In this document: positions 14,198 to 40,671 of the stretch, piece by piece
Position numbering within the stretch: the stretch's first letter is position 1
Layout: every line of letters begins with the position of its first letter
Virus record (IMG/VR): IMGVR_UViG_2531839531_000009
Strand: one strand, 5' to 3'
Origin: a virus
Lineage: Duplodnaviria; Heunggongvirae; Uroviricota; Caudoviricetes
DNA length: 55,409 nt
The notes under the pieces: model-generated
Told to the model about the DNA's origin: nothing
Database searches by the model: none
The model's input: the letters and a program-made list of their open reading frames with translations, nothing else
Program-made: the position numbers and the translations under genes

Positions 14198-15133
14198 TTA
14201 TTTCACTTCAACCACATTCAGCCGTAACTCATCCAACTGATTTTCATCTTCTTCTGGCTGCCAGCCCGCCGGTTGTAGTGGGATCTCTTCGCGATCAAAC
14301 GCCAGATCACCCCCGTTAACCACTTCAGAACCGTGGGTAATGCCTTTGAAATCGAACAGGTTGGTATCGCACAGATGCGACGGCACCACATTCTGCATCG
14401 CGCTGAACATCGTCTCGATACGCCCTGGATAACGTTTATCCCAGTCACGCAACATGTCAGCAATCACCTGACGTTGCAGGTTAGGCTGTGAACCGCACAG
14501 GTTGCACGGAATAATCGGGAACGCTTTTGCATCGGCAAATCGCTGAATATCTTTCTCGCGGCAGTAGGCCAGCGGACGAATAACGATATGTTTGCCATCA
14601 TCGCTCATCAGTTTCGGAGGCATACCTTTCATCTTGCCGCCGTAGAACATATTTAAGAACAACGTTTGCAGGATATCGTCACGATGGTGACCCAACGCGA
14701 TCTTCGTCGCCCCCAGTTCCGTTGCGGTACGATAAAGGATACCGCGACGAAGGCGAGAACACAGTGAGCAAGTGGTTTTGCCCTCTGGAATCTTCTCTTT
14801 CACGATACCGTAAGTATTCTCTTCAACAATCTTGTACTCAACGCCCAGCTTTTCAAGATACTCGGGCAGAACGTGTTCCGGGAAGCCCGGTTGCTTTTGA
14901 TCGAGGTTAACAGCCACCAGCGAAAAATTGATTGGCGCGCTTTGCTGCAAATTGCGCAGAATCTCCAGCATGGTATAGCTGTCTTTACCCCCGGAGAGGC
15001 AAACCATGATGCGATCGCCTTCTTCAATCATATTGAAGTCAGCAATGGCTTCGCCCACGTTACGACGCAGACGTTTTTGTAATTTGTTCAGGTTGTATTG
15101 TGCTTTCTTTGTAATTTGTTGATTTTCTTGCAT
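14198..15133 (-). CDS. ttcA: tRNA 2-thiocytidine biosynthesis protein TtcA
   Basis: 311 aa; PP-loop SGGKDS and CxxC motifs ([16 protein letters not shown]). Confidence 0.9.
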
Positions 15134-15184: not shown

Positions 15185-16420
15185 CTACGATAACCGTGCA
15201 TTCAACATGGCTACCTGTTCGTCGTTCATGTCATCAATCCACATACCGTAAATTTCATACACCATCTGCGCAGTTTCATGCCCCATTTGGCTGGCTATAA
15301 ATGCCGGGTTCGCTCCTGCCGTCAACAGCCAGCAGGCAAAAGTATGCCGCGTATGGTACGGATTACGGCGGCGAATACCAGCACGTTTTACTGCTGCATT
15401 CCACCTTGCCCCCAAACTGCTTACCGAGTAATAAGGTTTTTGTTTTCCGTTACACACCCTGGGCATGAAAACAAAATGCAGTTTTTGCTTTTCGGTTCTG
15501 CCGTACTCCCGATGATAAAAGGTGATTTCGCTTTTGCGATGATGCCCGGTCAGTTTGTATTGCTCCTTCAGTGCTTCAAGAGCAGGCTGCAGTAGTGTTA
15601 CTGTCCGGATCCCGGCATTTGTTTTTGGGGGACCGAACATATCAAGTATCGTCAGGTTTCTTCTGACATTCACTATTCCCTTTTCGAGATCCACATCCTC
15701 CCACGCCAGAGCTGCCAGTTCCCCGTGACGAAGTCCTGAGTAAACGGCAAATTTCCACAAGTTCTGGCTCTGTCCTTTTTCACTTTCCATTAATGCATTG
15801 AATTCTGTTTTAGATAACGGATCAGGCTTTATTCTGTTTCGCTGTAATTTTTTTACTCCTTCAAATGGTTTGGTTGATATAAATCCCGACTGATACGCAA
15901 AACGTAACAGCGAACAGAGCAGGGCGATATAGTTATCAACTGTGCGTACGGTTCTTCCTTTTTTGTTGGATCTTGGATTATCCAGGTAAAGCGTTTCTCC
16001 ATGCAGCAGTTCATTCCGGTAATTTAAGATATCGCTATAACGAATATGTGATATCGGGGTACTTTCACAAATTATTATTCTGAGTGTTTTTAATTGTGAT
16101 TTCGTTTTCTTCATTGTGTTTGTTGTTAACTCTGTTTCTTTAATTTTTGTCCAGATATCACAAAGCTCCCCGAACGTTTTTATGACTCTCGTTGTCACCA
16201 TTTTTGCCCCAGTGCTGGACTGGGGAAAACGTCTTAAATACTCAAATTCACCGGAGTTTATTTCATGAACTATCAGCGCTCTTAAATTTCCGGCCTTTTT
16301 AATATTACTGTTTGTAATCTCCCAGCCTTTTAATGTTTCCCGACATCGTTTTCCTCGAAACATGAACCAGATGCGAATGTATCTACCTCTAATCTCGACA
16401 CCTGTTGGTAATTTAGACAT
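15185..16420 (-). CDS. intR: tyrosine integrase, Rac-type
   Basis: 411 aa; C-terminal catalytic region with RHTFACWLL and HETAQMVYEIYGMW; adjacent to ttcA as in K-12 Rac. Confidence 0.85.
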   Translation of the reverse strand: MSKLPTGVEIRGRYIRIWFMFRGKRCRETLKGWEITNSNIKKAGNLRALIVHEINSGEFEYLRRFPQSSTGAKMVTTRVIKTFGELCDIWTKIKETELTTNTMKKTKSQLKTLRIIICESTPISHIRYSDILNYRNELLHGETLYLDNPRSNKKGRTVRTVDNYIALLCSLLRFAYQSGFISTKPFEGVKKLQRNRIKPDPLSKTEFNALMESEKGQSQNLWKFAVYSGLRHGELAALAWEDVDLEKGIVNVRRNLTILDMFGPPKTNAGIRTVTLLQPALEALKEQYKLTGHHRKSEITFYHREYGRTEKQKLHFVFMPRVCNGKQKPYYSVSSLGARWNAAVKRAGIRRRNPYHTRHTFACWLLTAGANPAFIASQMGHETAQMVYEIYGMWIDDMNDEQVAMLNARLS

Positions 16421-28638: not shown

Positions 28639-29211
28639 ATGAGAGACATTGATGTAAGAAAGGCTGTGCATGCCAAGATTCTGAGAGATCATCATAAAGA
28701 TCCTGACACCCTAATCATTGATGAGTTTACGATGAATCTAGGGGCTAGCAGAGCTGATATAGCAGTGATCAATGGGCTTATACATGGTTATGAGTTGAAG
28801 AGCAAGAGTGATAACTTGCTCAGATTACCAGCGCAGGTGCAACATTACTCATCAGTGATGGATAAAGTAACGTTGGTTGTCTCTGATTGCCATCTTTATG
28901 ATGCTTTAAGCATAGTTCCATCATGGTGGGGGATAAAGCAAGTTACGCAAGGTGCACGGCAAGGTATCCATTTAAAAACAATTCGAACTAGCAAGTTGAA
29001 TCCACAAGTGGACAAACTTTCCTTAACAATGCTTCTTTGGAAAGATGAATTGCTTTCCCTATTAAGTGATGTAGGGGAGCTACAGAATTTGAAAAATAAA
29101 CCTAAACGCGTCTTATGGTCAAAACTCGCCAATAGTATGGATGTTGGCGAGCTTCGTGAAGCTGTTCGAGTTAAACTTAAAGCCCGTAAAGAGTGGCGAG
29201 TTGCTCAATAA
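28639..29211 (+). CDS. PD-(D/E)xK nuclease-like protein (resembles proteins I recall annotated as sce7726 family)
   Basis: 190 aa; LIIDEF...RADIAVINGLIHGYELKSKSDN fits a PD-(D/E)xK D...D...E-x-K pattern; AT-rich coding sequence; 3' end overlaps the convergent partner by 35 bp. Confidence 0.6.
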   Translation: MRDIDVRKAVHAKILRDHHKDPDTLIIDEFTMNLGASRADIAVINGLIHGYELKSKSDNLLRLPAQVQHYSSVMDKVTLVVSDCHLYDALSIVPSWWGIKQVTQGARQGIHLKTIRTSKLNPQVDKLSLTMLLWKDELLSLLSDVGELQNLKNKPKRVLWSKLANSMDVGELREAVRVKLKARKEWRVAQ

Positions 29212-30274
29212 CCTTAGTTATGTGATGGTTTTGCCCAATCCTACGCCATACCTCTGGGCTACCAAATTTATAGTTACCAGAGGGATTGGCTTTGTAGGCT
29301 TGATACTCGTTTGCATAATATTCTATGTCTCTATCTCCCGCACAGAATGTAGGCCCTGAATATTCTCGATGAGCAAGAATATCCTCACTATGTTTACCAT
29401 ATTGTTCATAACCAAAGCGATTAGCTACTCTTCCTCGAAATACCCAAAAGTCATTATCTCCAGAGTATCTGACGCTGGCAGATACGCTAGGGAATCGCGT
29501 CGAAAGCCTATTAAAGTCGGGGTGCTGTACTCCATAATCACTATAAATCACATTTCTGGCAAGTTCTTTTCTATTCATTAAACTCTGCCATAAAATCCAC
29601 TCGATTCGAGGTTGAGAATATAGACCAACAGAAATATCACTGAGATCTGTAGGAAATGAACCCCCAGAAATAATCACTTTCCTGTATTCATTGAGGTGCG
29701 CCAGATTGTTTATCAATCCCATTGCCAAAGTATATAGTTCGCCGGAATTAAGTTTATCCTCGGTTAACTCATCTCTTAAGTCAATAATTATATCAAAATT
29801 TGATAAAGGAATTCCCAGATGATTAATGTAATGCGTTATTAATTGTGGGTTAACCAGATCTAACGTAGTTAATCTCAAGCATATTTCATTCTGCATTAAT
29901 TCATCAATCGCTCTTTTATAGTTAGATGGGCGAGTTGGTGAACTGACAGGAATAACTCTTATTCCCATATCTCTAACTTGATTAACCGCATTCATTATAG
30001 GGTAATGATCTTCAGGAGAAATAAAATGCTCTTCAATTAATAATCCATCAATATAAACACCTTGCATATCTGAGCAAGATTTTGAGACTTTCTTTCCGAA
30101 CTCTATAAGAGTCTCGTTATAACTCTTTAAGGCAATACCTGAATCAGGGTCAATTGGCACTGGTTCAATTTCGAGTAATGGCAAAATTTTTGATTTCTTT
30201 TCAATGGATAGCTGCGATAAAGCTGATAACTCAGAACGTTTCGCTTTCAGAATAGGAATATATGAAATTGTCAT
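29177..30274 (-). CDS. hypothetical 365-aa protein (resembles proteins I recall annotated as sce7725/beta family)
   Basis: Long AT-rich ORF convergent with the nuclease-like gene; no motif identifiable by eye. Confidence 0.6.
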   Translation of the reverse strand: MTISYIPILKAKRSELSALSQLSIEKKSKILPLLEIEPVPIDPDSGIALKSYNETLIEFGKKVSKSCSDMQGVYIDGLLIEEHFISPEDHYPIMNAVNQVRDMGIRVIPVSSPTRPSNYKRAIDELMQNEICLRLTTLDLVNPQLITHYINHLGIPLSNFDIIIDLRDELTEDKLNSGELYTLAMGLINNLAHLNEYRKVIISGGSFPTDLSDISVGLYSQPRIEWILWQSLMNRKELARNVIYSDYGVQHPDFNRLSTRFPSVSASVRYSGDNDFWVFRGRVANRFGYEQYGKHSEDILAHREYSGPTFCAGDRDIEYYANEYQAYKANPSGNYKFGSPEVWRRIGQNHHITKVIEQLATLYGL

Positions 30275-33328: not shown

Positions 33329-33404
<76 letters not shown>

Positions 33405-33407
33405 TAT

Positions 33408-33482
<75 letters not shown>

Positions 33483-33846
33483 GCAGAGGACGATGCTAGG
33501 CTGTTTCAGGCACTGACACATTATATGTGTGGGATGTTTTACCCTAACTCCTTACCACATCCTGTTCTGTAATGAATATTATTTATTACGGTACCAGTGT
33601 TGTTTTTTTACAATAGTGGAATGGTGCATTACTGGTGGAGATTTGTATTTCCTGGCAGGGCTGGTAATGTATCATTCCGGTGTTGTAAATAACACCCCAG
33701 AGACGTTCCTCAGTGCGAGGGTGGTTGAAAGAGTCGGTTTTGCGGGAAACCACAGCATCCATGCAGGACTGGATGTTTCGGGAGGCCCCGACGTCTCTGG
33801 TCATAATAAAATCATAGTGTTCTCTTCATGCCATTTTATGCCATAG

Positions 33847-34053: not shown

Positions 34054-34480
34054 ATGTTTGGTATTTTCAAAAAGAAAACCCGCAAGGCCATTACCGAAGT
34101 GAAGAAGATGGAGAACCGTGACGCAGTGGAGGCGACCGTCTGGGGCGCGTACTCCATTGCATACGCTGACGGCACCTGTGACGCGAAAGAAATCGCGGTA
34201 CTGGAAAAAAACCATTGCAGCACTTCCTGTCTTTGCGCCGTTCTCCGGTGAGATTGCACAAATGAGTGCAAATATCCGCGCCCGTTATGAAGCGTCGCCG
34301 CGTTCTGCCAATGCCGAAGCTCTTCGTCAGCTGGCTGATGTTGCCGGTACTGATGATGCAGTTAATGTGCTGTGCCTGTGTCTGGATATCGCTGACCAGG
34401 ACGGTATCGGTCAGGAAGAAGAAGCGCAACTGAAGAAAATTGCGCAGGCGCTGCAGTTGCCGCTGGAGCAGTACCTGTGA
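34054..34480 (+). pseudogene. TerB-like protein gene split by a frameshift at an A7 tract
   Basis: ORFs 34054..34251 and 34118..34480 together read as one TerB-like protein; the frame change maps to gaaaaaaacc (A7 at 34205..34211). Confidence 0.45.
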
Positions 34481-36354: not shown

Positions 36355-37146
36355 ATGAGCGAGAAATTGAAGATTGGCTATCGCCCTTTACAAGAACTGT
36401 CTCCGTATGCACACAACGCCAGGACACACAGCCCTGAGCAGGTGGCACAACTGGTAGAAAGCATTAAGCAATTCGGCTGGACTAATCCGGTGCTGATTGA
36501 TGAAAAGGGCGAAATTATTGCTGGTCACGGTCGCGTTATGGCGGCTGAAGTGCTCAAAATGGATTCCATTCCGGTCATCGTTCTGTCTGGTTTGATGGAT
36601 GATCAGAAAAAGGCGTACCGCCTGGCAGATAATCGCCTGCCGATGAATGCTGGCTGGGATGAAGATCTGTTACGGATGGAGCTGTCGGACCTAATCAATG
36701 CTGATTTTGATGTCTCCCTGACAGGCTTCAGCCCGACAGAAATTGATGAACTGTTGACGGATGTTTTGCCCGGTACAGGAAATGAGGAGGAGCCGTATAC
36801 GACGAAAATTGATACGCCTGTTTATGAGCCGTCGGGCGGTAAACCGGATATCAGTGAACTGTACGACGATACGAAAACTCAGGAGCTGATCAGCCGGATA
36901 CGTTCGGCGTCCCTTGATCCTGATATTGAGAAATTCCTCCTGTGTGCGGCAGAACGTCACACGGTGTTTAATTTCAGCAGAATTGCGGACTATTACGCTC
37001 ACGCCCCCGCTGAAATTCAGTGCCTTTTCGAGGATTCGGCGCTGGTGATCATTGATTATCAGCAGGCTATTGAAAATGGATTTGTCCGGATGACGCAGCG
37101 CATGGTGGAGATCATGCATGGCGGGGAGGAGGAGGAATATGCGTGA
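36355..37146 (+). CDS. ParB N-terminal domain (ParB/Srx-like) protein
   Basis: 263 aa; N-terminal LSPYAHNARTHSPEQVAQLVESIKQFGWTNPVLIDEKGEIIAGHGRVMAA is a ParB-N signature; no methyltransferase motifs. Confidence 0.65.
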   Translation: MSEKLKIGYRPLQELSPYAHNARTHSPEQVAQLVESIKQFGWTNPVLIDEKGEIIAGHGRVMAAEVLKMDSIPVIVLSGLMDDQKKAYRLADNRLPMNAGWDEDLLRMELSDLINADFDVSLTGFSPTEIDELLTDVLPGTGNEEEPYTTKIDTPVYEPSGGKPDISELYDDTKTQELISRIRSASLDPDIEKFLLCAAERHTVFNFSRIADYYAHAPAEIQCLFEDSALVIIDYQQAIENGFVRMTQRMVEIMHGGEEEEYA

Positions 37147-38071
37147 TGATTTTTGCGCCTTTATTCTGACTCACGGGCGACCGGACAAAGTTCTGACTTA
37201 CCGGACGTTGCGTCGTGCTGGCTATACCGGGAAAATTTTTATCGTTGTTGATGATGAAGATAAGACACGGCATCAGTACATAGCTGAATTTGGTGAACAG
37301 GTGCTGGTGTTTTCCAAATCCGATATCGCCAGTCGTTTTGACGAAGCCGATAATTTCGGTGACCGCCGCTCAATTTTTTACGCCCGTAATGCTTGTTTCG
37401 ACCTGGCAAAACTGGTCGGGTGTAAATTCTTCATTCAGCTCGATGATGATTATCACGAGTTCCAGTTTCGGGTGGATCGCAACTATGACCAGGCCTATTT
37501 TCCGATAAGAAAACTGGATGCGATCCTTTCTGAAATGCTGGCGTACTACGAATCAATACCTGCGCTTTCCATCGCTATGTCGCAGGGCGGGGATTTTCTT
37601 GGTGACAATGGCGGCCATGCTTCGTGGGTGAAACGCAAGGCAATGAACAGCTTTATCTGTTCGGTTGATCGACCGTTCTCATTCATGGGACGCATTAACG
37701 AGGATGTGAATACGTACACGAATCTCGGTCGCTGTGGTGAATTGTTTATGACGATCGGTGCTGTCCAGTTAGGGCAGAAACAGACGCAGAAAAACAGCGG
37801 CGGAATGACCGAGCTGTATCTGGATTCCGGAACCTACGTTAAAAGTTTTTACTCCGTCATGTATGCGCCGTCGTGCGTAAAAATCTCACTGATGGGTGCC
37901 AGCCATAAACGCATTCACCATCAGGTCACCTGGAACAACGCTGCAGTAAAAATCCTTCACGAAAAATACAGGAAGAAGACACCCTGCATATCAATGGGGG
38001 TGACAAATGATTCCGTATTCGAAAGTCGAGTCTCTGGCAGCGTGCCGGATGACTGCACAACAAATCGCTGA
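37139..38071 (+). CDS. putative GT-A-like nucleotide-sugar transferase (DxD motif)
   Basis: Strong SD GGGGAGGAGGAGG; N-terminal AFILTHGRPDKV...IFIVVDDEDK and FFIQLDDDY resemble GT-A/GT2 signatures; assignment by eye. Confidence 0.4.
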   Translation: MRDDFCAFILTHGRPDKVLTYRTLRRAGYTGKIFIVVDDEDKTRHQYIAEFGEQVLVFSKSDIASRFDEADNFGDRRSIFYARNACFDLAKLVGCKFFIQLDDDYHEFQFRVDRNYDQAYFPIRKLDAILSEMLAYYESIPALSIAMSQGGDFLGDNGGHASWVKRKAMNSFICSVDRPFSFMGRINEDVNTYTNLGRCGELFMTIGAVQLGQKQTQKNSGGMTELYLDSGTYVKSFYSVMYAPSCVKISLMGASHKRIHHQVTWNNAAVKILHEKYRKKTPCISMGVTNDSVFESRVSGSVPDDCTTNR

Positions 38072-38258
38072 CGTTCTGGATGTTGATCTGAACCGACTGA
38101 AAGAAAATCGGGAAGCAATGACAAATTTTTATGCGTCCATCCGTAAGGGCAGAGCGAAAGGTGAAGCCGAGCTACGGGCGGCATTGTTTAAGCTTGCCAG
38201 AAAAGGGGATGCCTTTGCCCTGCGCGAACTACTCAGGGTGGATAAAAATCAGGATTAA
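38049..38258 (+). CDS. hypothetical small protein
   Basis: Internal ATG of ORF 38007..38258; helical, basic. Confidence 0.35.
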   Translation: MTAQQIADVLDVDLNRLKENREAMTNFYASIRKGRAKGEAELRAALFKLARKGDAFALRELLRVDKNQD

Positions 38259-38261
38259 CTG

Positions 38262-39353
38262 ATGAGCAGACCGGACTGGGGGGCGTTGCAGCAGGAGTAT
38301 ATTGCTGAATACACCCGCTCCGGTATATCTCCGGTGGCATGGTGTGAAGCAAGGGGACTGAATTACGCAACAGCCCGTCGTTACATCAAAAAACCTCCGA
38401 AAAATGCGCAGACAGAAATGCGCAAAACTGCGCAAAAAAGTGCGCAGAAAAAATCTGCGCAGACTGCGCAAAAGCAGAACGGAAAATCTCAGAAAAAAAA
38501 GCCAGTATCCGATGCGTGCCTGAATAAGGGCGACACGGAGGAATTTTCGTTCTGTCCCGATGAATTCGGCATCTCAGAGCAGCAGACGAAATTTGCGATG
38601 CTGGTTGCACAGGGGAGAAAACTCGTTGAGGCATATCGCCTGGCAGGATACGAGTCAGAGGGGAATGCGGCCTACGTCACTGCCAGCCAGCTCCTAAGAA
38701 ATCCTAAGGTTTATCGGGCTATCTCATGGTTCCGCAATCAGTACCAGAAACGCTATACCGCAGACCTAGATTTACTGGTGAGTCAGTTGATGGCCATTGT
38801 CCAGGCCGACCCCAATCAGTTGGCACAATTTCGCCGTGTTAACTGCCGTTATTGCTGGGGCGAGAATCATCTCTACCAGTGGCGTGATATTGCAGAATTC
38901 GATAAGGCAGCAGCACAGGCCTCCAGAGATGGCAAACCCGAGCCGGAATATGGAGGCCTCGGCTTTGTTGATAACGCCATACCCAATCCGGATTGTCCGA
39001 AGTGCTGCGGTGAGGGAACGGGACAGCTTTATATGGCTGATACCACTCTGCTTGATGGGGATGCGCGACAATTATATGCAGGGGCAAAGCTCGGGAAATT
39101 TGGTGTTGAGATCCTGCTGGAGGATAAGGCTGCCGCCCGGCGCGAACTTATCAAGCTGATAATGGCGACGAAAGGAGGTTCTGCTAGTGGTGCAACTGAC
39201 AGTCGCAATGATCTGGAGCTTGAAGGACTGAGACTTCGCAACGAAAAGCTGCGCACTGAGATTGAAAACCTCAAAAAAGGCGTGGGTGGTGAGAATAACG
39301 AAATAATTATCCACAACTCTCTGCCGATGCCGGGAGTGGATAATGTCGATTGA
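38262..39353 (+). CDS. putative terminase small subunit
   Basis: 363 aa with N-terminal HTH (GISPVAWCEARGLNYATARRYIKK) directly upstream of the large terminase; contains a short AQK(S/T)AQK repeat. Confidence 0.55.
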   Translation: MSRPDWGALQQEYIAEYTRSGISPVAWCEARGLNYATARRYIKKPPKNAQTEMRKTAQKSAQKKSAQTAQKQNGKSQKKKPVSDACLNKGDTEEFSFCPDEFGISEQQTKFAMLVAQGRKLVEAYRLAGYESEGNAAYVTASQLLRNPKVYRAISWFRNQYQKRYTADLDLLVSQLMAIVQADPNQLAQFRRVNCRYCWGENHLYQWRDIAEFDKAAAQASRDGKPEPEYGGLGFVDNAIPNPDCPKCCGEGTGQLYMADTTLLDGDARQLYAGAKLGKFGVEILLEDKAAARRELIKLIMATKGGSASGATDSRNDLELEGLRLRNEKLRTEIENLKKGVGGENNEIIIHNSLPMPGVDNVD

Positions 39354-40671
39354 AATCTACCTCCCAAAACCTCATGAGGGGCAAATAGCTGCATGGACGG
39401 CGGCAATAGAGGAACGCTTCCACGCGGTATGCTGTGGTCGTCGCTGGGGTAATACGGTGATGCTGGTGAACATCGCTACCAGTTTCGCGACGCGGAAATT
39501 TGCCGTTCCTACCACCGGGCAGCTTATCGCGGGTAGGGTGGGGATTTTTACCGCACAATACCGACAGTACCAGGAAATCTGGGATGAAATTAGCGCCGTT
39601 CTGCAACCGCTGATCCTCAGTCAGTCAAAAAATGAAAAGCGCATCATTCTCCGGAACGGTGGCCGCATCGACTTTTGGGTAACGGACAATAACAAACTGG
39701 CCGGGCGTGGGCGTAAATATCACGCTGTGCTGATTGATGAGGCCGCATTCACTAAATCGCCGGAAATGCTCGAAGAAATCTGGCCCCGCGCTATACGCCC
39801 GACGCTTGTCGATTACCGCGGCTGTGCGTGGGTATTTTCCACACCAAACGGTATCGACGAGAGCAATTTTTTCTACGCGATATGCCACGATGAATCCCTG
39901 GGATTTGTCATGCACCATGCGCCAACTTCATCGAATCCGTATATTCCGAAAGAAGAACTGGAGGAAACGGAGAAGAAATCCGATCCGCGCGTCTGGCAGC
40001 AGGAATATCTTGCCGAGTTCGTGGACTGGTCCAAAGATGCGTTACTCGATGTCGATAAGCTGCTGGTGGACGGTCAGCCGATTGAGATGCCACCGCATTG
40101 CGACATGATTTTCGCAGTGATGGATACGGCGCTGAAAGGCGGGACCGAAAATGATGGTACTGGCATGGTGTATTTCGCTTATGAGTCAACGTATTCGGAC
40201 GAGCCAAAACTGACGATTATTGACTGGGATGTGACGCAAATTAAAGCGTCATTGCTTCCTGAATATATCCCCGGCGTTTATGACAACCTCGAGCGCCTGG
40301 CGAAATTATGCCGTCCGCGTCTGGGCAGCCAGGGAATTTTTATGGAAGACGCTGCGATGGGGGCAATCCTCAACCAGAAGGCGGAAACCGAAGGTTGGGA
40401 TATGACGCCGATTAAATCGGCACTAACCAGCAAAGGCAAAGACGAACGGGCGGTGATGGCATCCAGCTACCACTATCAGGGGATGTGCAAAATCGTCCGG
40501 GAGGCTTACGACAAGACCGTTTCATTCAAACGCACCACCGCAAACCACCTCATTAAGCAAATAGCCGGGTTCCACCTGGCAGACAAAGACGCACATAAAC
40601 GTGCTGATGACCTTTTCGATTGTTACACCTACGGATTGATTATCGCGCACGGTAATTACGCGGAATTGTAA
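39343..40671 (+). CDS. terminase large subunit
   Basis: 442 aa; Walker A-like CCGRRWGNT, Walker B-like YHAVLIDEAA, C-terminal nuclease-like region. Confidence 0.85.
   Translation: MSIEIYLPKPHEGQIAAWTAAIEERFHAVCCGRRWGNTVMLVNIATSFATRKFAVPTTGQLIAGRVGIFTAQYRQYQEIWDEISAVLQPLILSQSKNEKRIILRNGGRIDFWVTDNNKLAGRGRKYHAVLIDEAAFTKSPEMLEEIWPRAIRPTLVDYRGCAWVFSTPNGIDESNFFYAICHDESLGFVMHHAPTSSNPYIPKEELEETEKKSDPRVWQQEYLAEFVDWSKDALLDVDKLLVDGQPIEMPPHCDMIFAVMDTALKGGTENDGTGMVYFAYESTYSDEPKLTIIDWDVTQIKASLLPEYIPGVYDNLERLAKLCRPRLGSQGIFMEDAAMGAILNQKAETEGWDMTPIKSALTSKGKDERAVMASSYHYQGMCKIVREAYDKTVSFKRTTANHLIKQIAGFHLADKDAHKRADDLFDCYTYGLIIAHGNYAEL

What the first reader, a model, noticed from the sequence alone, without database searches (positions are those of the whole stretch)
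36355..38071. ParB-like protein coupled to a DxD-motif GT-A-like enzyme just upstream of the terminase genes
In lambdoid phages a ParB-like domain at this position is usually fused or adjacent to a DNA methyltransferase. Here the partner instead resembles a GT-A nucleotide-sugar transferase (IVVDD, LDDDY) and is translationally coupled to the ParB-like gene. That makes the pair a candidate DNA hypermodification or other nucleotide-dependent anti-restriction module.
Basis: inference. Interest (0 to 1): 0.5.

Follow-up and report, generated by a model that had tools for sequence, protein, structure and literature searches.

The report
Orphan ParB-partnered phage glycosyltransferase module
A Rac-like E. 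coli prophage carries, just before its DNA-packaging genes, a translationally coupled pair of genes - a ParB-type nucleotide-switch protein with an undescribed C-terminal domain, and a glycosyltransferase of the family that sugar-coats phage DNA - but without the enzyme that normally makes the sugar attachment site, so its target is unknown.

Summary
Window 36355-37146 encodes a 263-aa ParB/Srx-type protein. Window 37139-38071 encodes a 310-aa GT-A glycosyltransferase of Pfam family TAGT (E 2.5e-35) with intact catalytic motifs. Its ATG overlaps the ParB stop codon behind a strong Shine-Dalgarno sequence, and the terminase genes follow.

TAGT enzymes glycosylate hydroxymethyl-pyrimidines in DNA, and ParB-like proteins are known activators of phage DNA-modifying enzymes. 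But this prophage shows no TET/JBP dioxygenase, hydroxymethylase or C5-methyltransferase. The complete 31.8-kb genome of Lactobacillus phage c5, which has the same pair, lacks a detectable one too.

The pair is an ancient two-gene module. The glycosyltransferase is almost always preceded by a protein carrying a conserved, acidic ~120-aa C-terminal domain with no Pfam or PDB match. This holds in phages of Proteobacteria, Firmicutes, Actinobacteria and Bacteroidota, and in a haloarchaeal virus. The module usually sits just upstream of the terminase. The ParB N-domain is interchangeable: it is shared with ParB-methyltransferase fusions and is absent from some partners.

The most likely function is a late-expressed, dioxygenase-independent glycosylation module acting on phage DNA as a counter-defence. 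The acceptor is unproven, and the pair is uncharacterised in the literature I could search.

The parts
36355..37146 (+). Gene for the 263-aa ParB/Srx-type partner protein (RefSeq name 'ynaK' / ParB/Srx family N-terminal domain-containing protein).
   Evidence: ORF. Pfam ParB_N and PHROG 620 matches. RefSeq annotation of 99.9% identical loci.
36355..36759 (+). ParB-CTPase-type nucleotide-binding domain plus a helix-helix segment (residues 1-135). Motifs are N21-A-R23, G57-H-G-R60 and D92-N93. There is no HTH DNA-binding domain.
   Evidence: Alignments A2-A4. PDB profile hits to ParB/Noc N-domains only, residues ~18-98. AF2 model secondary structure. The domain is shared with ParB-MTase fusions.
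36796..36831 (+). Conserved linear motif Y148-T-x-K-x-x-x-P155-x-Y157-E-P159 inside a predicted disordered, acidic linker.
   Evidence: Y148, P155 and Y157 are conserved in 69 of 72 distinct homologues. pLDDT is below 50 for residues 137-159.
36850..37119 (+). Undescribed helical, acidic C-terminal domain (residues ~166-255; AAERHTVFNF..IADYY..Q.L.E.SALVIID). This is the constant partner of this TAGT clade.
   Evidence: R201, Y214, E226 and D234 are invariant in 72 sequences. No Pfam or PDB match. 1196 cluster representatives in 1.84 billion proteins. It lies directly upstream of the GT in 154 of 169 loci. It also occurs alone, without the ParB N-domain.
37123..37146 (+). Translational coupling junction: Shine-Dalgarno GGGGAGGAGGAGGAA, GT start ATG at 37139, ParB stop TGA at 37144-37146.
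   Evidence: Read directly from the sequence. Overlapping or abutting gene ends recur in relatives.
37139..38071 (+). Gene for the 310-aa TAGT-family GT-A glycosyltransferase. Key residues are R14 (37178-37180), D38/D41 (37250-37261), D102-D104 (37442-37450), N187-E188-D189 (37697-37705) and H260-H261 (37916-37921). The C-terminal subdomain, residues 216-290, is basic.
   Evidence: Pfam PF20691 E 2.5e-35 and PHROG 842 E 9e-103. AF2 model with GT-A Foldseek hits. Invariant columns. pI values.
38049..38258 (+). Small ORF (69 aa as annotated in RefSeq; 83 aa from ATG 38007) overlapping the 3' end of the GT gene. It resembles part of a terminase small subunit. It is context, probably not part of the module.
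   Evidence: phrog_309 E 2.5e-22. RefSeq CDS in L001.
38262..40671 (+). Terminase small (38262-39353) and large (39343-40671) subunit genes, the conserved downstream neighbours.
   Evidence: Pfam Terminase_2; PHROG 51 and PHROG 2.

Best explanation
This is a self-contained, two-protein glycosylation module of tailed viruses. The enzyme is a TAGT-family GT-A glycosyltransferase that uses a host nucleotide-sugar. Its obligate partner is a protein whose conserved acidic C-terminal domain, together with a Tyr-rich linear motif, is inferred to bind and control the basic enzyme. In this prophage that partner also carries a ParB-CTPase-type N-terminal domain. The same interchangeable domain is fused to DNA methyltransferases at the equivalent position in other phages. 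I infer that it tethers or activates the enzyme on double-stranded DNA, as shown for ParB-dependent phage thymine dioxygenases. The pair is transcribed with the late genes and translated as a unit just before the terminase. It would therefore act on replicated phage DNA shortly before packaging and protect it from host nucleases or other DNA-sensing defences. Unlike every characterised DNA-acting relative, it works without a dioxygenase or hydroxymethylase, so the acceptor must be something universal: a canonical DNA position, or the partner protein itself. What is shown: the identity of both proteins, the fold, intact catalytic motifs, the obligate pairing, the position next to the terminase, and the absence of a detectable hydroxylase. 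What is inferred: DNA as the target, the tethering role of ParB, and the counter-defence role.
For: The enzyme is a real, conserved GT-A. Evidence: Pfam TAGT E 2.5e-35; only GT-A folds among the Foldseek hits; R14, D102-D104 and D189 invariant from E. coli to a haloarchaeal virus, with N187/E188 also invariant among closer relatives. The family link to DNA glycosylation comes from T2/T6 TAGT (PMC13216743, PMC13390438) and from phage GT-A enzymes with the R...DDD...ED motif, which resemble JGT (bioRxiv 10.1101/2023.12.21.572611). Pairing is obligate: the C-terminal-domain protein lies directly upstream in 154 of 169 loci and is present in 73 of 78 non-redundant diverse loci. Hosts include Lactobacillus, Nocardia, Porphyromonas, Vibrio and Yersinia, plus Haloarcula virus HHTV-2. 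Terminase genes are the main recurrent downstream neighbour (TerL in 48 of 78 loci) and come in several unrelated types. Nucleotide-sugar supply or extra glycosyltransferases are added in variants: a UDP-galactopyranose mutase equivalog in 13 of 78 loci, and 2-3 tandem TAGT genes. The ParB N-domain is shared with DNA methyltransferase fusions. ParB-like activators of a DNA-modifying enzyme on dsDNA have been demonstrated (PMC13229309). Partners that lack the ParB N-domain sit among DNA polymerase, clamp, helicase and primase genes. The GT is basic, especially its conserved C-terminal subdomain (pI 9.7), and the partner domain is acidic (median pI 4.6). The module is dispensable, as expected for a counter-defence gene: the GT is broken or deleted in several L. 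delbrueckii phages, and 677 of 1566 E. coli genomes hold only partial copies. No hydroxylase was found.
Against: No chemistry is known by which a GT-A enzyme glycosylates unmodified DNA; all characterised DNA-acting relatives need 5hmC, 5hmU or glucosyl-5hmC. The partner has no recognisable DNA-binding (HTH) domain and is strongly acidic. Some partners lack the ParB domain altogether, so DNA tethering cannot be the core mechanism. One TAGT relative, GREB1, glycosylates a protein (PMC7968844). Pyle et al. regarded GT contigs without a 5mYOX or ThyS as less likely to act on DNA. My test for TET/JBP in distant loci was of limited sensitivity. It used a single eukaryotic seed and a Pfam summary that showed only 25 of 99 families. 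There is no experimental evidence on the DNA of any phage that carries the pair.
Confidence: 0.45

Rival explanations
1. Protein glycosylation. The glycosyltransferase modifies a protein rather than DNA. The most plausible acceptor is its own partner, on the near-invariant Tyr/Thr residues of the Y-T-x-K-x3-P-x-Y-E-P motif (glycogenin-like priming). Another phage or host protein is also possible. The glycosylated acidic protein would then act as a packaged or injected factor, a decoy or a regulator.
For: Y148 and Y157 are conserved in 69 of 72 partners and lie in a disordered linker. The acceptor would travel with the module, which explains function in bacteria and archaea without any base-modifying enzyme. 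The TAGT relative GREB1 O-GlcNAcylates a protein (PMC7968844). Glycogenin is among the structural neighbours. Tandem GT genes and UDP-Galf supply fit the building of a glycan chain. The partner is acidic with no DNA-binding domain.
Against: The association with ParB N-domains that are shared with DNA methyltransferases, and with replication or packaging genes, points to DNA. The glycogenin similarity is generic to the GT-A fold. There is no precedent for a glycosylated ParB-like protein.
Confidence: 0.22
2. Classical hydroxymethyl-pyrimidine glycosylation, with the precursor made by an undetected enzyme. That enzyme would be a highly divergent dioxygenase, a radical-SAM enzyme, or a gene elsewhere in the phage or host. 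Under this reading the pair is an ordinary TAGT pathway.
For: TAGT is named for its TET/JBP association. O'Toole et al. report thousands of phage 5mYOX-like contigs without a Pfam TET/JBP annotation (PMC13229309), so divergent enzymes exist. A few variant loci carry radical-SAM genes next to the pair, one of them PA0069/SplB-like. My TET screen had limited sensitivity.
Against: No unassigned ORF of at least 150 aa remains in the non-structural part of this prophage. In the complete phage c5 genome the largest unknown ORF is 208 aa and has no Pfam hit. No recurrent unknown family accompanies the pair in 78 diverse loci. The ParB-dependent 5mYOX class is linked to amino-acid transferases and kinases, not to GTs, and the GT-linked 5mYOX class lacks ParB (PMC13229309).
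Confidence: 0.12
3. A non-DNA, non-protein target. The pair glycosylates a small molecule or RNA, for example a nucleotide immune signal or a tRNA base. Alternatively it is a lysogenic-conversion enzyme that alters a host envelope glycan to exclude other phages.
For: ParB/Srx-fold domains bind diverse NTPs and occur in kinases such as SerK and Srx (PMC12704722). The region between the lysis and terminase genes of lambdoid prophages is a known moron site; in a Yersinia prophage an enterotoxin operon sits right next to the pair. Pyle et al. note the structural similarity of phage GT-A enzymes to the prophage wall-teichoic-acid GT TarP.
Against: The pair also occurs in phage c5, where it is the first two genes after cos and whose genome shows no integrase, and in large phages with their own DNA-replication genes. 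No sigma-70-like promoter of its own was found upstream. The GT has no membrane segment or undecaprenyl-linked partner, and no PADLOC hit. Its strict linkage to packaging or replication genes is unlike conversion genes.
Confidence: 0.1
4. A decaying remnant. In this E. coli prophage the pair is a non-functional relic of an ancestral hypermodification pathway.
For: Many E. coli copies are truncated (677 of 1566 genomes have less than 80% coverage, and K-12 Rac retains only a ynaK fragment). The window prophage carries an IS3 insertion in the tail region and a frameshifted TerB gene.
Against: Both ORFs here are full length with every invariant catalytic and partner residue intact. The same intact pair is conserved at 60-98% identity across Enterobacterales and is present in induced E. 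coli phages.
Confidence: 0.05

Closest known systems
TAGT / beta-glucosyl-HMC-alpha-glucosyltransferase of phages T2 and T6 (Pfam PF20691), and the 5mYOX-associated phage GT-A enzymes of Pyle et al. 2024
   Same: Same Pfam family and PHROG 842. Same GT-A fold and the same R...DDD...ED catalytic motif. All are phage-encoded and post-replicative.
   Different: Those enzymes act on glucosyl-5hmC or 5hmC made by dCMP hydroxymethylase or by C5-MTase plus TET. Here no such precursor pathway is detectable. The T4-like homologue in Aeromonas phage Aeh1 has no C-terminal-domain partner, whereas this clade always has one.
ParB-dependent phage thymine dioxygenases (5mYOX176/ParB176; O'Toole et al., PNAS 2026, PMC13229309)
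   Same: A phage ParB-like protein with an N-terminal NTP-binding domain, a short helical segment, a disordered linker and a C-terminal domain, but no HTH. It is encoded next to a DNA-modifying enzyme that it activates on dsDNA. Terminase genes are often nearby.
   Different: The client enzyme there is a dioxygenase linked to amino-acid transferases and kinases. Here it is a glycosyltransferase and there is no dioxygenase. I could not test whether the two C-terminal domains are homologous, because no sequences were available.
ParB-DNA methyltransferase fusion proteins of temperate phages (phrog_498; PADLOC MTase_II model)
   Same: The N-terminal ~140 residues are homologous, with up to 54% identity, which is closer than to distant ParB-CTD proteins. 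The position at the head of the packaging genes is the same.
   Different: In those proteins the ParB domain is fused to an N6/N4 methyltransferase. Here it is fused to the novel C-terminal domain, and the enzyme is a separate, translationally coupled polypeptide.
Base-J glucosyltransferase (JGT) of kinetoplastids, and GREB1
   Same: Related GT-A catalytic domains, according to the literature (PMC7968844 and Pyle et al.). RefSeq names some orthologues 'GREB1-related protein'.
   Different: JGT needs 5hmU made by JBP1/2. GREB1 O-GlcNAcylates a protein. Neither has a ParB-type or C-terminal-domain partner.
DpdB-DpdA of the 7-deazaguanine DNA modification system (recalled from memory, not tested here)
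   Same: A ParB-like NTPase serves as an accessory to an enzyme that modifies DNA.
   Different: The enzyme there is a transglycosylase that swaps a base. There is no sequence relationship to the GT here.

Membership tests
Pfam PF20691 TAGT (GT-A, JGT/GREB1-like glycosyltransferases) | Profile match above the curated gathering score | tested here: met
   122.7 bits against a cutoff of 27.5, E 2.5e-35, residues 8-222. PHROG 842 E 9e-103.
Pfam PF20691 TAGT (GT-A, JGT/GREB1-like glycosyltransferases) | GT-A Rossmann-like fold with the R...DDD...ED(Y/F) active-site motifs | tested here: met
   The AF2 model is confident over residues 1-215. All top Foldseek PDB hits are GT-A enzymes. R14, D102-D104 and D189 are invariant across 9 very distant homologues, and N187/E188 are also invariant among 17 closer ones.
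Pfam PF20691 TAGT (GT-A, JGT/GREB1-like glycosyltransferases) | Genomic association with a source of hydroxymethyl-pyrimidine (TET/JBP 5mYOX, or dC/dU hydroxymethylase with alpha/beta-GT) | tested here: not met
   None is annotated or detected in the prophage, in the complete phage c5 genome, or as a recurrent neighbour in 78 diverse loci. The sensitivity of the TET screen in distant loci was limited.
Pfam PF20691 TAGT (GT-A, JGT/GREB1-like glycosyltransferases) | Transfers a sugar to a modified base in DNA | not testable with these tools
   Needs nucleoside LC-MS or an enzyme assay.
Canonical partition ParB (ParABS; TIGR00180) | Full-length match with an HTH parS-binding domain, a ParA-binding motif and an adjacent parA | tested here: not met
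   TIGR00180 scores 35.7 bits against a cutoff of 58.45, and only residues 12-93 match. PDB profile hits cover only the N-domain. No ParA is annotated in the prophage.
ParB/Srx N-terminal (ParB-CTPase fold) domain, PF02195 | Profile match and conserved NTP-pocket motifs (NxR; GxxR; E/D-N) | tested here: met
   27.7 bits against a cutoff of 26.3. N21-A-R23, G57-H-G-R60 and D92-N93 are conserved in Enterobacterales orthologues. R60 is lost in the Nocardia and Porphyromonas phage homologues. NTP binding itself was not tested.
ParB-dependent 5mYOX system (PMC13229309) | ParB-like activator with an NBD and a CTD but no HTH | tested here: met
   The architecture comes from alignments and the AF2 model: NBD, helix-helix segment, disordered linker, helical CTD.
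ParB-dependent 5mYOX system (PMC13229309) | A cognate TET/JBP-family thymine dioxygenase encoded next to the ParB | tested here: not met
   The gene translationally coupled to ParB is a TAGT glycosyltransferase. No dioxygenase was found.
ParB-DNA methyltransferase fusions | An N6/N4 methyltransferase domain fused to the ParB N-domain | tested here: not met
   Only residues 3-144 match these models (phrog_498, PADLOC MTase_II). The C-terminal half has no Pfam match.

The most novel reading that the evidence does not exclude
The ParB/CTD partner and the TAGT enzyme together glycosylate canonical, otherwise unmodified DNA (or DNA ends) directly, just before packaging. That would be a precursor-independent DNA glycosylation chemistry. 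It would be present in about a quarter of E. coli genomes and in viruses of at least four bacterial phyla and haloarchaea. The undescribed acidic C-terminal domain would serve as the specificity or activation subunit.
Probability: 0.25. Interest if true: 0.85.

Novelty: new variant of a known kind. Interest (0 to 1): 0.62.

Why it matters
Phage DNA glycosylation is known only as the last step of pathways that first install a hydroxymethyl (or hydroxy) group on a pyrimidine. This module has the glycosyltransferase and a dedicated partner but no such first step. Even so, it is conserved with intact catalytic residues from E. coli prophages to a haloarchaeal virus. It is present in 29% of complete E. 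coli genomes. Recent papers noted 'solitary' TAGTs (288 of 753 GT-encoding phage genomes) and GT contigs without a dioxygenase (~65%), but left them unexplained. Solving the acceptor would reveal either a new kind of DNA modification or a new use of the enzyme family, such as protein glycosylation tied to DNA packaging. A new DNA modification would bear on restriction evasion, on sequencing artefacts in prophage-derived DNA, and on biotechnology tools. The work would also define the function of a ~120-aa domain with more than 1000 sequence clusters and no annotation, and add a third client class to the emerging role of ParB-fold proteins as adaptors for DNA-modifying enzymes. The system is easy to test, because it needs only two genes and a genetically tractable host.

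Tried and rejected
1. Canonical plasmid or chromosome partition ParB. Rejected: no HTH, no ParA, and the score is below the TIGR00180 cutoff.
2. A hidden TET/JBP, hydroxymethylase or C5-MTase in the prophage. The window is colinear with an annotated prophage at 99.5% identity that has none. Pfam scans of the unassigned ORFs were negative.
3. A TET screen with Naegleria Tet1. I verified the recalled sequence as 100% identical to PDB 4LT5. It gave nothing in the phage collection or in the window plus 171 loci. A single eukaryotic seed is insensitive to phage 5mYOX enzymes.
4. The Pfam summary of 130 neighbour-cluster representatives showed no TET_JBP, but only 25 of 99 families are listed.
5. 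A fold or family assignment for the C-terminal domain. Pfam and PDB profile searches gave only noise, such as designed armadillo repeats and Phage_Gene47 at E > 0.005. The AF2 model of this half has low confidence (pLDDT 35-65), so I made no fold search of it.
6. GT-partner fusion proteins (Rosetta-stone evidence). The longer CTD proteins are just ParB_N plus CTD.
7. parS-like repeats or an own promoter around the pair. Nothing beyond chance.
8. Membership of a known defence system. The GT has no PADLOC hit, and ParB hits only the ParB part of an MTase model.
9. Iyer et al. 2013 (NAR 41:7635), the paper that defined TAGT, is not held in the library, so I could not check its statements on ParB-TAGT linkage.
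10. Literature on HHTV-2 and on ynaK gave no functional data on the pair.
Full report
**What is in the window**

The region lies in a Rac-type lambdoid prophage integrated next to ttcA (TtcA equivalog at 14201-15133; integrase at 15185-16420).
- Window 16361-52344 is colinear, at 99.5% identity, with an annotated prophage of E. coli 214-4. That prophage carries intR, xisR, ralR, recT, recE, kilR, replication genes, a Q-like antiterminator, lysis genes, then the pair, then terminase and structural genes.
- ORF1 (36355-37146, 263 aa) matches Pfam ParB_N (E 2.7e-6, just above the gathering score) and PHROG 620 (E 3.8e-88).
- ORF2 starts at ATG 37139 and ends at 38071 (310 aa). It matches Pfam PF20691 'TET-associated glycosyltransferase' (E 2.5e-35) and PHROG 842 (E 9e-103).
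- The ATG lies behind GGGGAGGAGGAGGAA and overlaps the ParB stop codon by 8 nt.
- A small ORF follows, then TerS (38262-39353) and TerL (39343-40671).
- No sigma-70-like promoter is predicted upstream of the pair, so it most likely belongs to the late transcript (inference).

**The glycosyltransferase**

- An AF2 model built on 17 homologues is confident over residues 1-215. Its PDB neighbours are exclusively GT-A enzymes: chondroitin polymerase K4CP, SpsA, glycogenin and others.
- No solved structure is detectable by sequence.
- R14, D38, D41, D102-D103-D104-Y105, N187-E188-D189 and H260-H261 are invariant among 17 homologues down to 59% identity.
- R14, the DDD triad, D189 and the HH pair stay invariant in 9 homologues down to 29% identity, including an archaeal virus.
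- This is the R...DDD...ED motif that Pyle et al. describe for phage DNA-glycosylating GT-A enzymes and for trypanosome JGT.
- Characterised members of the family are the T2/T6 enzyme that adds a second glucose to glucosyl-5hmC, the phage 5hmC glycosyltransferases, JGT, and the protein O-GlcNAc transferase GREB1.
- The enzyme is basic. The median pI is 8.8 over 78 homologues, and the conserved C-terminal subdomain of the window protein has pI 9.7.

**The 'ParB-like' protein has two parts**

- Residues 1-~95 are a ParB-CTPase-type domain with N21-x-R23, G57-H-G-R60 and D92-N93. PDB profile hits are to the ParB/Noc N-domains only.
- Residues 103-134 are two or three helices, and residues 137-159 are predicted disordered.
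- There is no HTH domain. The protein fails the model for partition ParB, and there is no ParA.
- The C-terminal half is at least as conserved as the N-domain. It has a linear motif, Y148-T-x-K-x3-P155-x-Y157-E-P159, followed by a helical domain (AAERHTVFNF..IADYY..Q.L.E.SALVIID).
- In 72 distinct sequences R201, Y214, E226 and D234 are invariant. Y148, P155 and Y157 are present in 69, and H202 in 70.
- This domain has no Pfam or PDB match.
- It is acidic, with a median pI of 4.6.
- It has 1196 cluster representatives (1008 at E <= 1e-10) among 1.84 billion proteins. Nearly all listed hits have it at the C-terminus, and the full-length ones are about 255-300 aa; 7 of the 10 longest were confirmed as ParB_N proteins.

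**Obligate pairing and context**

- Diverged homologues of the GT in a metagenomic HK97-like phage, a lambda-like prophage and a Yersinia prophage all have the partner gene directly upstream, overlapping the GT start, and the terminase downstream. The terminases are of three unrelated types.
- The same arrangement is found in cultured viruses:
  - Lactobacillus phages phi jlb1 and c5;
  - Nocardia phage NTR1;
  - a Porphyromonas phage;
  - haloarchaeal virus HHTV-2, where the pair lies 3 kb upstream of TerL.
- I scanned 169 loci with my own HMMs. In 154 the C-terminal-domain protein abuts or overlaps the GT on the same strand.
- In the rest it lies up to about 1.6 kb upstream on the same strand, or the locus is cut at a contig end. 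In the cases I inspected, only extra GT or radical-SAM genes lie in between.
- In 78 non-redundant diverse loci the only recurrent neighbours are:
  - the partner (73 loci);
  - a Terminase_3-type TerL (48 loci);
  - families of about 120 and 150 aa at the TerS position, with no Pfam hit (22 and 13 loci);
  - a UDP-galactopyranose mutase, above the NCBIfam equivalog cutoff (13 loci).
- Some loci have two or three tandem TAGT genes or a radical-SAM gene in the module.

**The ParB N-domain is an exchangeable accessory**

- In some phages the partner is only ~130 aa, made of the linear motif plus the C-terminal domain. The pair then sits among DNA polymerase A, sliding-clamp, helicase and primase genes. 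One example is Vibrio phage pv27.
- Conversely, the window's N-domain is more similar to the N-termini of phage proteins annotated as adenine DNA methyltransferases (up to 54% identity) than to the N-domains of distant ParB-CTD proteins (35-41%). It also matches phrog_498 and the PADLOC MTase_II model.
- The T4-like TAGT of Aeromonas phage Aeh1, which is of the T6 type, has no such partner.
- So the constant unit is C-terminal domain plus GT. The ParB domain is a module shared among DNA-modifying enzymes.

**No precursor enzyme**

- The annotated, colinear prophage has no TET/JBP, thymidylate-synthase-like hydroxymethylase or C5-methyltransferase.
- The unassigned ORFs large enough to encode one gave no such Pfam hit.
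- Phage c5 is a complete cos genome of 31.8 kb in which the pair is ORF1 and ORF2. Its largest unknown ORF is 208 aa and has no Pfam hit.
- Naegleria Tet1, verified against PDB 4LT5, finds nothing in the phage collection or in any sequence held here. That is a low-sensitivity test.
- A Pfam summary of 130 neighbour-family representatives lists methyltransferases, PAPS reductases, radical-SAM enzymes and a sugar epimerase/dehydratase, but no TET_JBP among the 25 families shown.
- In the literature, the ParB-dependent dioxygenases are linked to amino-acid transferases and kinases, and the GT-linked dioxygenases lack ParB.
- About 65% of phage GT contigs lack a 5mYOX or ThyS and were set aside.
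- 288 of 753 GT-encoding phage genomes have a solitary TAGT of 'yet-to-be defined function'.

**Interpretation**

The module works in at least four bacterial phyla and in haloarchaea with no other constant gene. The acceptor must therefore be universal (DNA or RNA) or supplied by the module itself (the partner protein).

Several observations favour DNA as the substrate or platform:
- the family's record of acting on DNA;
- the ParB domain shared with methyltransferases;
- the demonstrated role of ParB-like proteins in activating a DNA dioxygenase on dsDNA;
- the location next to packaging or replication genes;
- the basic GT.

I give that reading about 45%.

Other observations keep a protein-acceptor model alive, at about 22%:
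- the near-invariant tyrosines in a disordered acidic linker;
- the lack of any DNA-binding domain in the partner;
- the GREB1 precedent.

Frequent loss of the GT points to an accessory, probably counter-defence, role rather than an essential packaging function. The GT is lost in L. delbrueckii phages phiLdb, Ld17, LL-Ku and Ld25A, and E. coli prophages often hold truncated copies (889 full-length among 1566 genomes).

**Novelty**

Both Pfam domains and their adjacency are annotated in databases, and solitary TAGTs have been noticed. In the literature available to me I found no description of three things: the strict two-gene module, its independence from a dioxygenase, and the conserved C-terminal partner domain. 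I could not read Iyer et al. 2013, which may mention the ParB-TAGT linkage. I class this as a new variant of a known kind, of above-average interest, and readily testable.

Noticed in passing
window 28639-29211 (+) and 29177-30274 (-): A convergent pair in the prophage early region. One gene is an sce7726-family protein (NCBIfam E 1.6e-56; PADLOC 'cll' E 2.4e-28). The other is a 'Beta protein' (Pfam PF14350 E 2e-52) matching PADLOC PD-Lambda-2_C (E 1.5e-41). This looks like a partial or variant PD-Lambda-2-type anti-phage system carried by the prophage.
   Followed up: partly
window 52438-53783 (-): An IS3-family transposase (orfA and orfB; NCBIfam transpos_IS3 E 2.8e-102) is inserted where the reference prophage has an uninterrupted 2-kb tail gene. 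Colinearity with L001 stops at 52344. This copy of the prophage is therefore probably defective for tail assembly.
   Followed up: partly
window 38007-38071 / 38049-38258: The E. coli GT is 310 aa and has a 22-aa C-terminal extension that is absent from the ~288-aa orthologues of other Enterobacterales. The extension overlaps the next small ORF, a fragment resembling a terminase small subunit (phrog_309).
   Followed up: no
L093 10204-11349, and 12 further loci: A UDP-galactopyranose mutase (above the NCBIfam equivalog cutoff) lies immediately downstream of the GT in 13 of 78 diverse loci. This implies that some modules transfer galactofuranose.
   Followed up: partly
L095 4232-5942; L096 7469-9994; L110 4679-7338; L123 9204-11812; L111 3385-4236; L138 9006-9995: Module variants have two or three tandem TAGT paralogues, radical-SAM enzymes, or both. 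The radical-SAM enzyme in L111 is closest to the PA0069/Rv2578c group, which I recall (not tested here) to be related to spore-photoproduct-lyase-type DNA repair enzymes. It could act on DNA itself.
   Followed up: partly
L170 4459-5888 (Vibrio phage pv27): A 139-aa protein made only of the linear motif and the C-terminal domain (E 2.7e-47), with no ParB domain, directly precedes the GT. The pair lies between primase/exonuclease and helicase genes of a 191-kb phage.
   Followed up: yes
L006 2180-3332 (Yersinia enterocolitica prophage): Genes for the A and B subunits of a heat-labile enterotoxin of the LT-II type (Pfam Enterotoxin_a, LT-IIB) lie directly upstream of the ParB-GT pair. This shows that the slot is also a toxin moron site.
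   Followed up: no
L003 17837-20316: Four consecutive GT2-family glycosyltransferase genes follow the capsid gene in a metagenomic phage that also has the ParB-TAGT pair. They may serve virion glycosylation.
   Followed up: no
Phage records KF188410 (phiLdb), KJ564037 (Ld17), AY739900 (LL-Ku), KJ564036 (Ld25A); In several Lactobacillus delbrueckii phages the GT match is split, truncated or reduced to a 45-aa remnant inside a 'ParB nuclease' ORF. The module is therefore repeatedly lost.
   Followed up: partly
window ~33335-33490 and 34054-34480 (by colinearity with L001 16975-17128 and 17700-18126): The prophage carries tRNA-Thr and tRNA-Gly genes and a frameshifted TerB-family gene between the antiterminator and the lysis genes, according to the RefSeq annotation of the colinear locus.
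   Followed up: no
E. coli K-12 ynaK (literature, PMC12924614): Overexpressing the truncated K-12 YnaK fragment was reported to raise the MICs of six antibiotics 3-6 fold. The mechanism is unknown and may be unrelated to the intact module.
   Followed up: no
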